From contig JAEOSI010000097.1 in assembly GCA_016840425.1 (NCBI GenBank), positions 1 to 7,874 on the forward strand: a DNA stretch of 7,874 nucleotides, written 5' to 3'. Origin of the DNA: Candidatus Wukongarchaeum yapensis (GTDB lineage: Archaea > Asgardarchaeota > Wukongarchaeia > Wukongarchaeales > Wukongarchaeaceae). The translations under genes were made by a program, and so were the position numbers. The notes under the pieces are model-generated. The model saw only the letters and a program-made list of their open reading frames with translations. It was not told the DNA's origin and made no database searches. Each line of letters begins with the position of its first letter. The stretch's first letter is position 1. Positions 4,368 to 6,815 of the stretch are shown here, one piece after another.

Positions 4368-4482
4368 TTAGTTCACCTCAGGCGTATGTAGTCTGAATTA
4401 ATTATATAGTTTATCTAAGTAAACTAAATAGCATGTAAATACTTTTATAGTTTTTATATAGTTTATTGACAGGGTGATTCCT
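4368..4482. promoter_or_regulatory. Divergent pstS/phoU promoter region with four TTWTATAGTTT-like 11-mers and TATA-like boxes
   Basis: 11-mers at 4402-4412 (TTATATAGTTT), 4443-4453 (TTTTATAGTTT), 4454-4464 (TTATATAGTTT) and an inverted 9/11 copy at 4421-4431. SDs at 4373-4379 (-) and 4473-4477 (+). Confidence 0.75.
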
Positions 4483-5511
4483 ATGAAATCTTCCGCACAG
4501 TTAAGGAAAGTTCAGCTGACTGGGGGTTCAACATATGTGGTTTCACTGCCGAAAAACTGGGCTAGAAGCGTGGGTTTAAAAGCTGGCGACCACGTAAAAA
4601 TAACCCCTCAATCCGGCACGTCACTACTAATATCTCCAAGGGAAGACATAGAGCGAAAAGAAGAGCTTTCAAAAGTTGTCATAGATGACTCAGCCGCAGA
4701 AACGGCTGAAGATGTTGTTAGAGAGCTAATTTCATGTTATTTAGTTGGCTACGATATAATCTCTTTAAAACTTGCGAAAAAAGCAACAGAGTACCGCTCC
4801 TACATTAAAGATGTTATGAGGCGAAAGTTAGTGGGGCTTGAACTCATAGAAGAATCTACGGATTATATGACCGCTCGTTGTATGCTTGGACACACTGAAT
4901 TTCCGGTCAAAGAAGCATTAAATCGCATGCACTCTATGGCTTTAGCTATGCACAATGACGCCATAACAGCTCTAAAAGAAGGTAATATCCCCCTTGCAAA
5001 CGAGGTAGAGCAAAGAGACGATGACGTGGATCGTTTATACTTCTTCGTTGTCCGACAACTGAAAATGGCCATGGAAAACAGGGTTACAATGGAAGAAATA
5101 GGATTAACAAATGCAAGAGACTGCCTAGGTTTCCGAATGATCGTCAAAAGCATTGAAAGAATAGCAGATCACGCTTCAAGAATAGCCGAAACAATACCCA
5201 AAATAGAACTCTCTAACATCGATGAAATCATCGATCCAATTTCAGAGATAAGCGAAATCTCCAACGATATTTGCAGAATCGCTATGAAAGCTCTACACCA
5301 ACTTAACGTCAAAAAAGCCAACCAATCCATAACGAAAATCGTTGAAGTAAATGAAATGGAGAAAAAGATACTAGAACAAATCCTCCAAACTAAATTAAAC
5401 ACTAAAACAATCATCGGTTTAAGACTTATCTTAGAAAGCATCCGAAGAATAGGAGAATACGGTACCGACATAGCAGAAATTGTCATAAACCTTGCAAAGA
5501 AATGGGCATAA
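4483..5511 (+). CDS. phoU: Archaeal phosphate uptake regulator: N-terminal AbrB/SpoVT-type DNA-binding domain plus PhoU domains (start probably ATG 4483)
   Basis: N-terminal RKVQLTGGSTYVVSLPKNWA is the AbrB-like signature. PhoU repeats EQRDDDVDRLY, KSIERIADHA and ESIRRIGEYGTDIAE follow. The track's GTG 4474 lies inside the GGTGA SD (4473-4477), which sits 5 nt before ATG 4483. The gene is divergent from pstS. Confidence 0.92.
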   Translation: MKSSAQLRKVQLTGGSTYVVSLPKNWARSVGLKAGDHVKITPQSGTSLLISPREDIERKEELSKVVIDDSAAETAEDVVRELISCYLVGYDIISLKLAKKATEYRSYIKDVMRRKLVGLELIEESTDYMTARCMLGHTEFPVKEALNRMHSMALAMHNDAITALKEGNIPLANEVEQRDDDVDRLYFFVVRQLKMAMENRVTMEEIGLTNARDCLGFRMIVKSIERIADHASRIAETIPKIELSNIDEIIDPISEISEISNDICRIAMKALHQLNVKKANQSITKIVEVNEMEKKILEQILQTKLNTKTIIGLRLILESIRRIGEYGTDIAEIVINLAKKWA

Positions 5512-5643: not shown

Positions 5644-5770
5644 TAATAAAAAAAGTGGAACCAGTGAACTACTCCCAGCTTTCGCAGGGGGCTTCCTGTT
5701 TCAACGACGGGATCATTATTATTCATCCATCTTCACAGGCGTAAATTCGGACAGTCCCTGTCCTAATCTT
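5644..5770 (-). ncRNA. Putative TnpB omegaRNA/reRNA scaffold plus flank-derived guide; ends approximate
   Basis: Perfect hairpin GGACAG-GGA-CTGTCC (5749-5763); long stem CCTGT/ACAGG plus GATGG/CCGTC; RE hairpin; internal GTGAA (5732-5736) complementary to the terminal TTCAC (possible pseudoknot). A TATA-like TTTATA lies at 5792-5797 upstream. Confidence 0.55.
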
Positions 5771-5862
5771 CTATCTTGTTATTCTTATGATTATAAATAG
5801 TTTATTATTATTGTTCGGCTTTCATCCCCCAGCTTTCGCAAGGGGACTTCTCGCCGAAGAAG
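5664..5862 (-). mobile_element. 199-bp non-autonomous IS200/IS605-family mini-element (PATE/MITE-like) with both ends and no transposase or TnpB
   Basis: Two related imperfect hairpins with a GCGAAAGC core (minus strand): LE 5826-5845 and RE 5672-5691. They share the exact 13-mer CCCAGCTTTCGCA. The RE ends GTAGTTCAC and the LE is preceded by TTTAA. The tetranucleotides at the hairpin feet (AAGT, GAAG) predict the observed cleavage sites TTAA and TCAC under the IS608 guide/cleavage pairing rule. Confidence 0.85.
5719..5778 (-). pseudogene. tnpB: Relic of the tnpB 3' end (QDRRLGQGLSEFTPVKMDE*)
   Basis: LGQGLSEFTPV resembles, from my recall of the family, the C-terminal tail of IS200/IS605 TnpB proteins that overlaps the reRNA. 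It has no start codon and sits immediately inside the RE. Confidence 0.6.
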
Positions 5863-6059
5863 TTAAAAACCACATTTTGAGTGGTTTCATGAAAAAACGT
5901 CGTCCTATAATTTTAAAACCGGTGTTTCAAAGCGTTTTTATACAAACTTTTGATTAGAAAGGGTGATAAACCCATTGTGCAAAGTTAAAGCAAATTTTTA
6001 AACTTTAAAAAATACGAACGGTCTATAAAGTCCAGGCACACGTTTTAAGGGTGATTATT

Positions 6060-6815
6060 TTGAGTGAAAAGGCTTATGAATGGTTTGAAAAGGGCACAGA
6101 TGCCTATAAAAAAGGGAGGCTTGAAGAAGCATTAGAACATTATGAACGCGCCCTAGAAATTAATCCGCAGTTTGCGCGAGCATGGAACAGTAAAGGCACT
6201 ATTTTAGCCGCTATGAACAAAACTAAAGAAGCCCTTCAATGTTTTGATCACGCCGTAAAAAACGATAAGGGGTTCATAGAGGCTTGGATAAACAAAGGCG
6301 CCCTACTATATTCTTTAGGCGATAAAGAGTCCAGCAATGAAGCTTTGGGTTGCTTTGATCATGTCTTACAACTGGATCCAAAAAGCGCGGAAGCCTACTA
6401 CGGTAAAGGTATGACTTTAAACAACTTAGAAAGACACGAAGAAGCACTAGAACACCTAGACAAAGCCCTCGAAATAAGCCCAAATTACTTGGGAGCCTTG
6501 ACTGGTAAAGGAGTGATCGCATACGGCTTAGGAAAACTAGAAGAAGCCCTAGACAGCTTCGACCGCGTCCTCGAAATAAACCCCGACTTATACCTCAGCT
6601 GGCACAACAAAGGACTAGTTCTAGGACGCCTAGGAAAAATGGAAGAAGCCCTAGAATGCTTTAACCGCGCCCTAGAAATCAACAAAAACCACGCCGAATC
6701 ATGGGTAAACAAAGGACGCACCCTAAAAGTCTTAGGACGCGACGAAGAAGCATCAAAATGCTTCCAAGAAGCCCTAAAAATCAACCCAAACCTTGAAGAA
6801 ATCACGCCGAAATAA
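6060..6815 (+). CDS. Tetratricopeptide repeat protein with 7 TPRs and no other domain (start probably TTG 6060)
   Basis: Seven ~34-aa units of the form W/Y-x2-KG-x6-G-x3-EA-x3-F/Y-x2-AL-x3-P; unit 3 has a 3-aa insertion. The track's GTG 6051 lies within the GGTGA SD (6050-6054), 5 nt before TTG 6060. Confidence 0.9.
   Translation: MSEKAYEWFEKGTDAYKKGRLEEALEHYERALEINPQFARAWNSKGTILAAMNKTKEALQCFDHAVKNDKGFIEAWINKGALLYSLGDKESSNEALGCFDHVLQLDPKSAEAYYGKGMTLNNLERHEEALEHLDKALEISPNYLGALTGKGVIAYGLGKLEEALDSFDRVLEINPDLYLSWHNKGLVLGRLGKMEEALECFNRALEINKNHAESWVNKGRTLKVLGRDEEASKCFQEALKINPNLEEITPK

What the first reader, a model, noticed from the sequence alone, without database searches (positions are those of the whole stretch)
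5644..5805. Stand-alone TnpB omegaRNA (guide-RNA) cassette with its own archaeal promoter
Seen: the internal deletion removed nearly all of tnpB but spared the usual reRNA footprint. That footprint is the C-terminal relic, the hairpin at 5749-5763, the CCTGT/ACAGG plus GATGG/CCGTC stem, the RE hairpin, and GTGAA able to pair with the terminal TTCAC. Upstream lies ATAAACTATTTATA (5792-5805, minus strand), which shares ATAAACTAT with the candidate pstS TATA region. A start about 25 nt downstream would fall near 5765-5770, at the scaffold's 5' edge. Established: TnpB reRNA derives from the right end and uses the adjacent flank as guide, with TAM equal to the LE target motif. Inference: the cassette could load a TnpB or nuclease-dead TnpB derivative in trans, with guide UGGUUCCACUUUUUUUAUUA and TAM TTTAA. 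That would let it defend its own insertion site or serve as raw material for an RNA-guided regulator. The T7 tract only 9 nt into the guide might truncate it.
Basis: partly seen in the sequence, partly recalled or inferred. Interest (0 to 1): 0.7.

Follow-up and report, generated by a model that had tools for sequence, protein, structure and literature searches.

The report
Gene-less TnpB mini-transposon keeping guide RNA
This stretch is one of about eleven copies of a 199-base, protein-less offshoot of a TnpB (IS200/IS605) transposon in an archaeal genome. It keeps only the two transposon ends, the transposon's promoter box and a complete minimal guide-RNA scaffold, which makes it a clean example of an already described kind of element and not a new system.

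Summary
Window 5664-5862 (minus strand) is a 199-bp gene-less IS200/IS605 derivative (a PATE) inserted 3' of TTTAA. About 11 copies with unrelated flanks lie in this genome.

- **What it keeps:** the left-end hairpin, a conserved TATA box (5797-5790), ten relic codons of the TnpB tail, a ~102-nt omegaRNA scaffold (5765-5664) and the right-end hairpin.
- **Scaffold test:** a covariance model built only from TnpB-linked scaffolds of this genome hits 5664-5769(-) at 85 bits (E 4e-17). The helices show compensatory changes and strand-specific G·U pairs.
- **Conservation:** the 5' hairpin plus linker is invariant in the 8 close copies (0/26 variable columns against 49/173 elsewhere).
- **Candidate nucleases:** intact 397-aa TnpB genes with a complete D-E-D triad, the same TTTAA target and the same scaffold core exist in the genome.
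- **Promoter:** the "own promoter" is the left end's tnpB promoter, brought about 25 nt from the scaffold by the internal deletion.

Transcription, TnpB loading and a cognate TnpA are not shown. The proposed GTGAA/TTCAC pairing has no covariation support.

PATEs that encode omegaRNAs used in trans are already described (Meers 2023; Gomes-Filho 2015; Dyall-Smith 2011). This scan has already reported sister copies in the same genome. Verdict: new member of a known kind, low-to-moderate interest.

The parts
5863..5867 (-). Target / transposon-adjacent motif TTTAA immediately 5' of the left end
   Evidence: Conserved next to the left end in most copies, with TTTTA or TTAAA in two diverged ones, while sequence further out is unrelated. 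The same motif flanks full-length tnpB elements.
5825..5862 (-). Left end: 16-nt foot (5862-5847) plus an imperfect hairpin at 5846-5825 (stem with a T·T mismatch, GAAA loop), the expected TnpA recognition structure
   Evidence: Read directly. It is nearly the same hairpin as at the right end. It is conserved in copies and in left ends across related genomes.
5790..5805 (-). BRE-like A-rich stretch plus TATA box TTTATAAT (5797-5790), the retained left-end tnpB promoter
   Evidence: TTTATA(A/G)T is present in the aligned copies, with one copy reading TTTGTAAT. It occupies the same position after the left-end hairpin as TTTATAAAA in tnpB-bearing elements, where ATG follows about 27-35 nt later. 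The genome encodes TBP. Promoter activity is inferred, not shown.
5766..5789 (-). Spacer holding the internal-deletion junction and the predicted transcription start (about 5767-5764)
   Evidence: Homology to tnpB-linked sequences starts at TAGG (5765). All MITE lineages share this spacer, so they descend from one deletion. The start site is inferred from a TATA centre-to-start distance of about 26 nt.
5749..5763 (-). Scaffold helix 1 (GGACAG-GGA-CTGTCC), equivalent by position to stem 1 of the ISDra2 omegaRNA
   Evidence: Consensus fold and pair counts show C-G to U-A and G·U/A-U/G-C exchanges. It is invariant in the 8 close copies.
5740..5748 (-). Invariant linker GAATTTACG. Its GAA is a candidate pseudoknot partner of UUC at -5 to -3.
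   Evidence: The columns are invariant or nearly so in 25 sequences and conserved across archaeal phyla and some bacteria. The pseudoknot assignment is an inference by analogy with ISDra2 (PMC10097598).
5695..5739 (-). Long-range stem CCUG/CAGG enclosing the central stem (GAUGG/CCGUC). The apical part is trimmed relative to tnpB-linked scaffolds.
   Evidence: Full-length scaffolds carry an extra CCGAGA-GAAA-UCUCGG arm that this copy lacks. Deleting the equivalent stem 3b keeps ISDra2 active.
5671..5692 (-). Right-end hairpin (GAAA loop, T·T and C·A mismatches). It is the expected TnpA recognition hairpin and corresponds to stem 4 of the scaffold.
   Evidence: with G-C to C-G and C-G to U-A exchanges.
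5664..5670 (-). Right-end terminus AGTTCAC. The transposon boundary lies after C5664.
   Evidence: Copies diverge completely right after this point. The same terminus closes tnpB elements, 15 nt after the tnpB stop.
5644..5663 (-). Flank that would serve as the guide (TGGTTCCAC followed by T7 at 5654-5648, a likely archaeal terminator)
   Evidence: Read directly. No other TTTAA+guide site exists in the genome. Both the guide role and termination in the T tract are inferred.

Best explanation
Window 5664-5862 (minus strand) is a 199-bp non-autonomous IS200/IS605 element (a PATE) of an archaeon. It arose by one internal deletion of a TnpB-only element.

The deletion fused the left end (TnpA hairpin plus the tnpB TATA promoter) to the last ~102 nt of the element. 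Those ~102 nt in the parent encode both the disordered TnpB tail and the omegaRNA scaffold.

The most likely working, step by step:
1. Transcription starts about 25 nt downstream of the TATA box, at the scaffold's 5' edge.
2. It runs through the scaffold into the flank and stops in the T7 tract. This would give an RNA of roughly 115-125 nt with a guide of about 12-16 nt.
3. The RNA is loaded in trans by the intact TnpB nucleases of sister elements (for example C137 and C59). These share the scaffold core, the AGTTCAC terminus and the TTTAA target.
4. The complex cuts the empty site (TTTAA followed by TGGTTCCAC...) whenever the element is excised. Recombination with a sister chromosome then restores it, which is selfish retention.

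Mobility itself would need a Y1 TnpA supplied in trans.

Shown here: the element's identity, copy number, boundaries, scaffold homology and structure, conservation, and the presence of candidate TnpBs. Inferred: transcription, RNA ends, TnpB loading and cleavage.
For: **A repeat family with sharp boundaries**
- About 11 copies: 8 at 85-97 % identity, the others at 73-83 %. Flanks are unrelated and the edges are sharp at TTTAA| and |after AGTTCAC.
- No ORF and no Pfam hit in the element.
- Ten relic codons are identical to the TnpB tail, followed by stops.

**The scaffold is the TnpB-linked one**
- tnpB ORFs of the sister family end 15 nt before the right end, so the scaffold lies in the tnpB 3' coding region.
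- Model R1, built from 12 TnpB-linked scaffolds only, hits window 5664-5769(-) over all 120 model positions at 85.4 bits, E 4e-17.

**The structure is supported**
- Own-genome set: 97.9 % of cells paired against 24-46 % when partners are slid.
- Wider set: 23 of 34 pairs have compensatory changes and 94 % of cells pair (that alignment is fitted to the model).
- Many conserved G·U pairs fit only this strand as RNA.

**Constraint after loss of coding**
- All MITE lineages share one deletion junction, yet helix 1 changed GGACAG/CTGTCC to GGGTAG/CTA(C/T)CC by paired changes.
- Helix 1 plus linker has 0/26 variable columns in the 8 close copies against 49/173 elsewhere (p = 0.0005; p = 0.017 without copy C147).

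**Candidate nucleases and promoter**
- 31 PF07282 matches in the genome.
- C137 and C59 encode 397-aa proteins that align to ISDra2 TnpB (8EXA, E 6e-48) with D, E, D and both CxxC motifs kept. Their elements have TTTAA at the left end.
- The TATA box is conserved in copies and matches by position the tnpB promoter of full-length left ends. TBP is present.

**Agreement with published work**
- The architecture matches the ISDra2 omegaRNA, and the trimmed apical stem mirrors the active Trim2 variant (PMC10097598).
- The trans-use idea is stated in PMC10055086.
- An expressed PATE RNA is known in Halobacterium (PMC4615843).
Against: - No transcript is demonstrated.
- No match to any Rfam family at E <= 10. 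Papers read cite the haloarchaeal sotRNA families (RF02656/7) and HgcC (RF00062) as Rfam families.
- The scaffold is only about 72 % identical to those next to intact tnpB genes and lacks their apical arm, so compatibility is assumed.
- The only intact tnpA found (C70) sits in an element with a different left end.
- Copies are young, so part of the conservation is simply recency.
- Two 45-bp terminal-only derivatives without a scaffold exist. The scaffold is therefore not needed for a remnant to persist.
- The T7 tract may shorten the guide in this particular copy.
Confidence: 0.6

Rival explanations
1. Inert relic. The element is a TnpA-mobilised (or no longer mobile) deletion remnant. Its scaffold survives only because the copies are young and because it lies next to the right-end hairpin that transposition needs. 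No functional RNA is made or used.
For: - The close copies are 94-97 % identical, so there has been little time for decay.
- No transcript is shown.
- No cognate TnpA was found.
- Scaffold-less 45-bp terminal-only derivatives exist at C104 and C160.
- Without copy C147, the scaffold half as a whole is no more conserved than the left half (13/102 against 16/97 variable columns, p = 0.55).
Against: - Helix 1 plus linker lies more than 50 nt from the TnpA hairpin, yet it is invariant in the close copies. In the diverged copies it changes only by paired substitutions made after coding was lost.
- Several independently trimmed gene-less lineages all keep the same core: C144 and C154 in this genome, plus matches on Bathyarchaeota, Methanofastidiosum and Ruminococcus contigs, where gene content was not checked.
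- The deletion left the promoter exactly in front of the scaffold.
Confidence: 0.3
2. Host-domesticated or regulatory RNA. The cassette supplies a guide to a nuclease-dead TnpB-like repressor, or it acts as an antisense or decoy RNA, for example against the convergent phoU-like gene or by titrating TnpA.
For: - Overexpressing a PATE-derived RNA improved growth in Halobacterium, and a TnpA-decoy role was speculated there (PMC4615843).
- If the T7 tract did not terminate transcription, it would run antisense into the 3' end of the phoU-like gene.
Against: - No second TTTAA+guide site exists. The only other 12-nt seed match (C178) lacks the TAM.
- The element is a multi-copy repeat with unrelated flanks, so its guides are set by chance insertion sites.
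- The TnpBs sharing this scaffold keep the full catalytic triad.
- The element was not found at this locus in the only congener. That genome matched the flanking DNA nowhere, so conservation of the site could not be assessed.
Confidence: 0.05

Closest known systems
PATEs (palindrome-associated transposable elements) of Haloquadratum walsbyi and other haloarchaea (Dyall-Smith 2011, PMC3119063)
   Same: - Gene-less IS200/IS605 derivatives made by core deletion.
- Similar near-terminal palindromes at both ends, with no inverted terminal repeats and no target duplication.
- Homogeneous multi-copy families.
- Even the side phenomena recur here: terminal-only ~50-bp versions, and other small repeats inserted into the terminal palindrome.
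   Different: The host lineage differs (a low-GC, non-halophilic archaeon) and so does the sequence family. The 2011 description predates the omegaRNA concept and does not address a retained guide-RNA scaffold or promoter.
PATE-like elements of Geobacillus stearothermophilus that encode omegaRNAs (Meers et al. 2023, PMC10055086)
   Same: Protein-less IS200/IS605 elements with conserved ends. [quoted passage not shown] That is exactly the mechanism proposed here.
   Different: Those elements are bacterial, with sigma-type promoters. Here the host is archaeal, and a TATA box from the left end sits about 25 nt before a naturally trimmed scaffold. Neither case has direct proof that the PATE RNA is used.
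VNG_R0052, a PATE-derived intergenic ncRNA of Halobacterium salinarum (Gomes-Filho 2015, PMC4615843)
   Same: Fused left and right ends of an IS1341-type (tnpB) element in an archaeon, shown there to be expressed as RNA.
   Different: Expression is shown there and not here. No classical BRE-TATA was found upstream of the haloarchaeal sotRNAs, whereas this element carries one. The papers read cite the related Rfam families (RF02656/7, RF00062), and the Rfam scan of this window returned none of them.
ISDra2 TnpB omegaRNA, including the engineered Trim2 version (Nakagawa 2023, PMC10097598)
   Same: - A ~100-116-nt scaffold ending at the right end, overlapping the dispensable TnpB C-terminal tail.
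- A 5' stem, a long-range stem 2 enclosing stem 3, and a right-end hairpin as stem 4.
- UUC at -5 to -3, available for a pseudoknot.
- A dispensable apical stem 3b. The element here is in effect a natural Trim2-like form.
   Different: No detectable sequence similarity of the RNA. The TAM is TTTAA, not TTGAT. The pseudoknot partner is unassigned here. The TnpB proteins share homology (E 6e-48), but binding was not tested.

Membership tests
IS200/IS605-derived PATE (non-autonomous element) | Similar imperfect subterminal hairpins at both ends, with no terminal inverted repeats | tested here: met
   The left-end hairpin (5846-5825) and the right-end hairpin (5692-5671) share the ...CCYTGC-GAAA-GCTGGG... 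core with a T·T mismatch.
IS200/IS605-derived PATE (non-autonomous element) | Insertion 3' of a short conserved target motif, with no target-site duplication | tested here: met
   TTTAA, or a one-base variant, precedes the left end in the copies. The 3' flanks are unrelated and do not repeat the 5' flank.
IS200/IS605-derived PATE (non-autonomous element) | Too short to code, with no transposase or nuclease gene | tested here: met
   The element is 199 bp. The only overlapping ORFs (69 and 56 aa) have no Pfam match. The tnpB relic frame is closed by stops.
IS200/IS605-derived PATE (non-autonomous element) | Multiple copies at unrelated sites, with sequence derived from a full-length IS605-type element | tested here: met
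   About 11 copies. The right ~102 nt are homologous to tnpB 3' ends. The left end matches left ends of decayed tnpB elements.
IS200/IS605-derived PATE (non-autonomous element) | A Y1 TnpA able to mobilise it in trans | tested here: inconclusive
   One intact Y1_Tnp gene (C70:7637-8003) and one fragment were found. The intact one lies in an element with a different left-end hairpin. The assembly is 92 % complete and fragmented.
IS200/IS605-derived PATE (non-autonomous element) | An empty site in a related genome that proves the boundaries | tested here: inconclusive
   The flanking DNA found no counterpart in 40 relatives, including the single congener. The boundaries rest on comparison of the copies only.
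TnpB omegaRNA (reRNA) | Scaffold at the right end, overlapping or following the tnpB 3' end, with the guide supplied by the flank | tested here: met
   The homologous scaffolds lie in the last 34 codons of intact tnpB genes and end at the transposon boundary. The same segment ends at 5664 here.
TnpB omegaRNA (reRNA) | Conserved secondary structure supported by covariation | tested here: met
   In the wider set, 23 of 34 pairs have changes on both sides and 94-98 % of cells pair, against about 24-46 % for slid controls.
TnpB omegaRNA (reRNA) | Pseudoknot between the guide-proximal nucleotides and an upstream segment | tested here: inconclusive
The alternative partners (GAA of the linker, GGA) are invariant, so they cannot be tested by covariation.
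TnpB omegaRNA (reRNA) | Transcribed as a discrete RNA | tested here: inconclusive
   One metatranscriptome holds a 201-nt contig of a diverged copy that spans the whole element. Contigs cannot show strand or ends, and DNA carry-over is possible.
TnpB omegaRNA (reRNA) | Binds a TnpB and directs TAM-dependent DNA cleavage | not testable with these tools
   This needs biochemistry or an interference assay. Candidate TnpBs with an intact D-E-D triad are present.
Rfam families of archaeal tnpB-associated RNAs (sotRNA RF02656/RF02657, HgcC RF00062) | Match to the family covariance model | tested here: not met
   No Rfam 15 family matched this region at E <= 10, apart from a meaningless CrcZ fragment at 19 bits. 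The family numbers are taken from PMC12558985 and PMC4615843.

The most novel reading that the evidence does not exclude
The roughly eleven promoter-fused, trimmed scaffolds may work together as a dispersed set of stand-alone guide genes served by a few TnpB nucleases. Selection would then act on the guide cassette itself: an invariant 5' hairpin, a natural 'Trim2-like' minimal scaffold, and a dedicated TATA promoter. That would be a living intermediate between transposon-embedded omegaRNAs and separately encoded guide RNAs of CRISPR-Cas12 systems, found in an archaeon.
Probability: 0.3. Interest if true: 0.5.

Novelty: new member of a known kind. Interest (0 to 1): 0.25.

Why it matters
If the RNA is made and used, this family gives a compact natural example of two things. 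One is an archaeal promoter driving a minimal (~102-nt) omegaRNA. The other is one nuclease serving many unlinked guides. That is useful for understanding how non-autonomous IS200/IS605 elements persist, and as a natural guide to which scaffold parts are dispensable.

It does not open a new question. The concept is published, and sister copies in this genome have already been reported by this scan with the same verdict.

Tried and rejected
- **Rfam scan.** The whole window was scanned at E <= 10. Nothing relevant came back.
- **RNA evidence.** Only one public run held any of the stretch (share 0.05, a leaf-litter metatranscriptome kept as contigs). Laying it gave three short contigs: the phoU 3' part, a diverged 201-nt whole-element copy, and 5891-6147. 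Contigs show neither strand, ends nor expression, so this counts neither for nor against transcription.
- **Empty-site search.** The locus DNA was searched in 40 relatives. No flank matched, so there is no empty site.
- **15-mer scan of genome contigs.** The scaffold core was used as the pattern. Most of the 116 stretches with a match (about 80 listed) are probably chance matches to a 15-mer, and most were not examined. Of those passed to the model, only the ones confirmed by R1 were used.
Not supported by covariation.
- **Methanogen idea.** No McrA in the 92 %-complete assembly. The host is archaeal, since TBP is present. The lineage was not determined here.
- **Off-target guide sites.** None found.
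- **The tnpA at C70 as mobiliser.** Its left end differs, so the question stays open.
- **Regex search for the MITE-type left end next to intact tnpB genes.** It found nothing. Left ends had to be read by eye. No intact tnpB element with exactly this left-end subtype is in the assembly.

Full report
**1. What is there**

On the minus strand the window reads as follows:
- TTTAA (5867-5863);
- a 16-nt foot and an imperfect hairpin with a GAAA loop (5846-5825);
- an A/T-rich spacer with TTTATAAT (5797-5790);
- a hairpin GGACAG-GGA-CTGTCC (5763-5749) and an invariant linker GAATTTACG;
- a long-range stem CCTG.../...CAGG (5739-5695) enclosing GATGG/CCGTC;
- a second hairpin almost identical to the first (5692-5671);
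- AGTTCAC, ending at 5664.

The 9-mer ATAAACTAT is indeed shared with two TATA-like sites upstream of pstS. The neighbours are pstSCA (minus strand), a PhoU-domain gene (plus) and a TPR gene (plus). The small ORFs that overlap the element have no family match.

**2. It is a repeat: a gene-less IS200/IS605 derivative**

The 199-bp unit 5664-5862 recurs in the same genome. Eight copies are 85-97 % identical, one is 83 % and two are 73 %. Similarity begins at TTTAA and ends exactly after AGTTCAC, and the flanks are unrelated.

The element has the hallmarks of IS200/IS605 elements and of their protein-less PATE derivatives: two similar subterminal hairpins, no inverted terminal repeats, no target duplication, and insertion 3' of a fixed pentanucleotide.

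The genome is archaeal. TBP is present and no McrA was found. Its GC content is 38 %. It is crowded with this transposon family, with 31 matches to the TnpB zinc-ribbon domain and 21 to OrfB_IS605.

**3. The right half is the TnpB guide-RNA scaffold**

In the sister elements that still carry tnpB, the ORF stops 15 nt before the right end. The last 34 codons therefore overlap the segment that is homologous to the mini-element.

The mini-element keeps ten of these codons (LGQGLSEFTP) and then loses the frame. This confirms the 'C-terminal relic'.

I built a covariance model from 12 tnpB-linked scaffolds only. It finds window 5664-5769(-) end to end at 85.4 bits, E 4e-17. It also finds all other mini-copies, and scaffolds in other organisms:
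- Aenigmatarchaeota, Bathyarchaeota, Methanofastidiosum and Methanomassiliicoccus MAGs;
- more weakly, rumen Ruminococcus MAGs and Microcoleus.

No Rfam family matches.

**4. Structure and constraint**

The consensus fold has four parts: a 5' hairpin, a long-range stem, an inner stem and the right-end hairpin.
- On the unfitted own-genome alignment, 97.9 % of cells pair, against 24-46 % when partners are slid. Compensatory changes occur in the 5' hairpin and the right-end hairpin.
- On the wider alignment, which is fitted to the model, 23 of 34 pairs show changes on both sides.
- Several pairs are conserved G·U. These would be C·A on the other strand, so the structure belongs to an RNA (or single strand) of the element's sense strand.

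All mini-element lineages share the same deletion junction, so their divergence happened after coding was lost. Even so, the 5' hairpin changed only by paired substitutions.

The 5' hairpin plus linker shows 0 variable columns of 26 among the eight close copies, against 49 of 173 in the rest of the element (p = 0.0005; p = 0.017 without copy C147). This argues against neutral decay of that part. For the scaffold as a whole the signal is weak once C147 is removed. The copies are also young, so this evidence is moderate and not decisive.

**5. Comparison with the solved omegaRNA**

The ISDra2 scaffold is 116 nt long. It has stem 1, a pseudoknot formed by -5U to -3C, stem 2 enclosing stems 3a and 3b, and stem 4 next to the guide. 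Stem 3b and the TnpB C-terminal tail are dispensable (PMC10097598).

The scaffold here has the same order of helices and UUC at -5 to -3. In the major mini-element type, the apical arm of the central stem is missing. Full-length scaffolds carry that arm as CCGAGA-GAAA-UCUCGG.

Other gene-less lineages (C144 and C154), and matches in other phyla whose gene content was not checked, are trimmed at the same place in different ways. The mini-element is thus a natural counterpart of the engineered Trim2 RNA.

However, its second pair is broken in 12 of 25 relatives and nothing covaries. GAA of the invariant linker is an equally good candidate partner that cannot be tested by covariation (inference).

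**6. Promoter**

TTTATA(A/G)T is kept in the copies, with one reading TTTGTAAT.

In tnpB-bearing elements, a TTTATAAAA box lies just after the left-end hairpin, and the tnpB ATG follows 27-35 nt later. Another gene-less type (C154) shares the very same AATAATAAA(G/C)TATTTATA stretch.

The box is therefore the left end's tnpB promoter and not a new acquisition. The deletion brought it 24 nt from the first scaffold base. With the usual archaeal spacing, the start would fall at about 5767-5764. Activity is inferred.

**7. Candidate partners**

- C137 and C59 encode 397-aa TnpBs that align with ISDra2 TnpB (E 6e-48). They keep the RuvC D, E, D residues and both CxxC pairs.
- Their scaffolds share the conserved core and terminus with the mini-element, and their left ends abut TTTAA.
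- A single intact Y1 tnpA exists (C70), but in an element with another left end. The assembly is a 92 %-complete, 277-contig MAG, so absence means little.

**8. Guide**

The flank TGGTTCCAC followed by T7 would be the guide. TTTAA plus this flank reconstitutes the empty site.

No other such site exists in the genome. The only other 12-nt seed match lacks the TAM. A role beyond self-retention therefore has no support.

The T7 tract begins 9 nt into the guide. Termination inside it could still leave about 12-16 nt (inference).

**9. Expression**

One leaf-litter metatranscriptome holds a 201-nt contig of a diverged copy that spans the whole element. It also holds contigs over neighbouring parts from a related strain. 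These are contigs, so they show neither strand, ends nor true transcription.

**10. Prior knowledge and verdict**

- PATEs were defined in Haloquadratum as core-deleted IS605-type elements (PMC3119063).
- A PATE-derived RNA is expressed in Halobacterium (PMC4615843).
- Meers et al. state that PATEs often encode omegaRNAs that must be used in trans by TnpBs of other elements (PMC10055086).
- This scan has already reported several sister copies in this genome with the same conclusion. I reached mine from my own tests before reading those notes.

The finding is real and well built, but it is a new member of a known kind. Its function as a trans-acting guide is likely but unproven.

Noticed in passing
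G000:C104:5105-5154 (-) and G000:C160:797-847 (+) (loci L021, L026): Two 'terminal-only' mini-elements of about 45 bp plus TTTAA. The left-end foot is fused through a single hairpin to the right-end terminus AGTTCAC. This looks like recombination between the two near-identical hairpins, the same repeat-mediated core deletion described for 52-bp PATEs in Haloquadratum.
   Followed up: partly
G000:C253:10001-10274 (locus L007); also C175:3567-3852 and the left end at C121:~906-940: A 274-bp element with imperfect terminal inverted repeats sits inside the GAAA loop of the mini-element's left-end hairpin. It is flanked by GAAA on both sides, which may be a target duplication. It recalls the small mobile repeats that target PATE palindromes in Haloquadratum. 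Copy number is low (BLAST).
   Followed up: partly
loci L149, L167, L150, L152, L127, L099/L100/L103/L165, L106/L124: The same scaffold core (CCGAAUUUACGCCUGUGGAG ... CAGGAAGC ... GUAGUUCAC) is found by model R1 in Aenigmatarchaeota, Bathyarchaeota, Methanofastidiosum and Methanomassiliicoccus MAGs. It is found more weakly in rumen Ruminococcus MAGs and Microcoleus. One omegaRNA type therefore appears to span archaeal phyla and some bacteria.
   Followed up: partly
window 4406-4466 (minus strand): ATAAACTATATAA occurs twice, 52 nt apart, in the divergent pstS / phoU-like intergenic region. These look like duplicated BRE/TATA-like boxes upstream of pstS.
   Followed up: no
G000:C70:7637-8568 (locus L071): The only intact Y1 tnpA of the assembly is followed 3 nt later by a tnpB start. 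This is an autonomous IS605-type element cut by the contig end. Its left-end hairpin differs from that of the mini-element family.
   Followed up: partly
window 5300-5362, 5664-5837, 5891-6147: A leaf-litter metatranscriptome (run X1) contains short contigs 91-95 % identical to these parts of the window. A related strain or species appears to live in that habitat.
   Followed up: no
G000 contigs C61, C70, C115, C144, C177, C212 and C98, C110, C172, C216, C228, C258, C265: At least two further right-end/scaffold subfamilies share the ...GGTAGTTCAC terminus but have different upstream scaffolds. Several TnpB lineages thus coexist with the same cleavage-site terminus.
   Followed up: no
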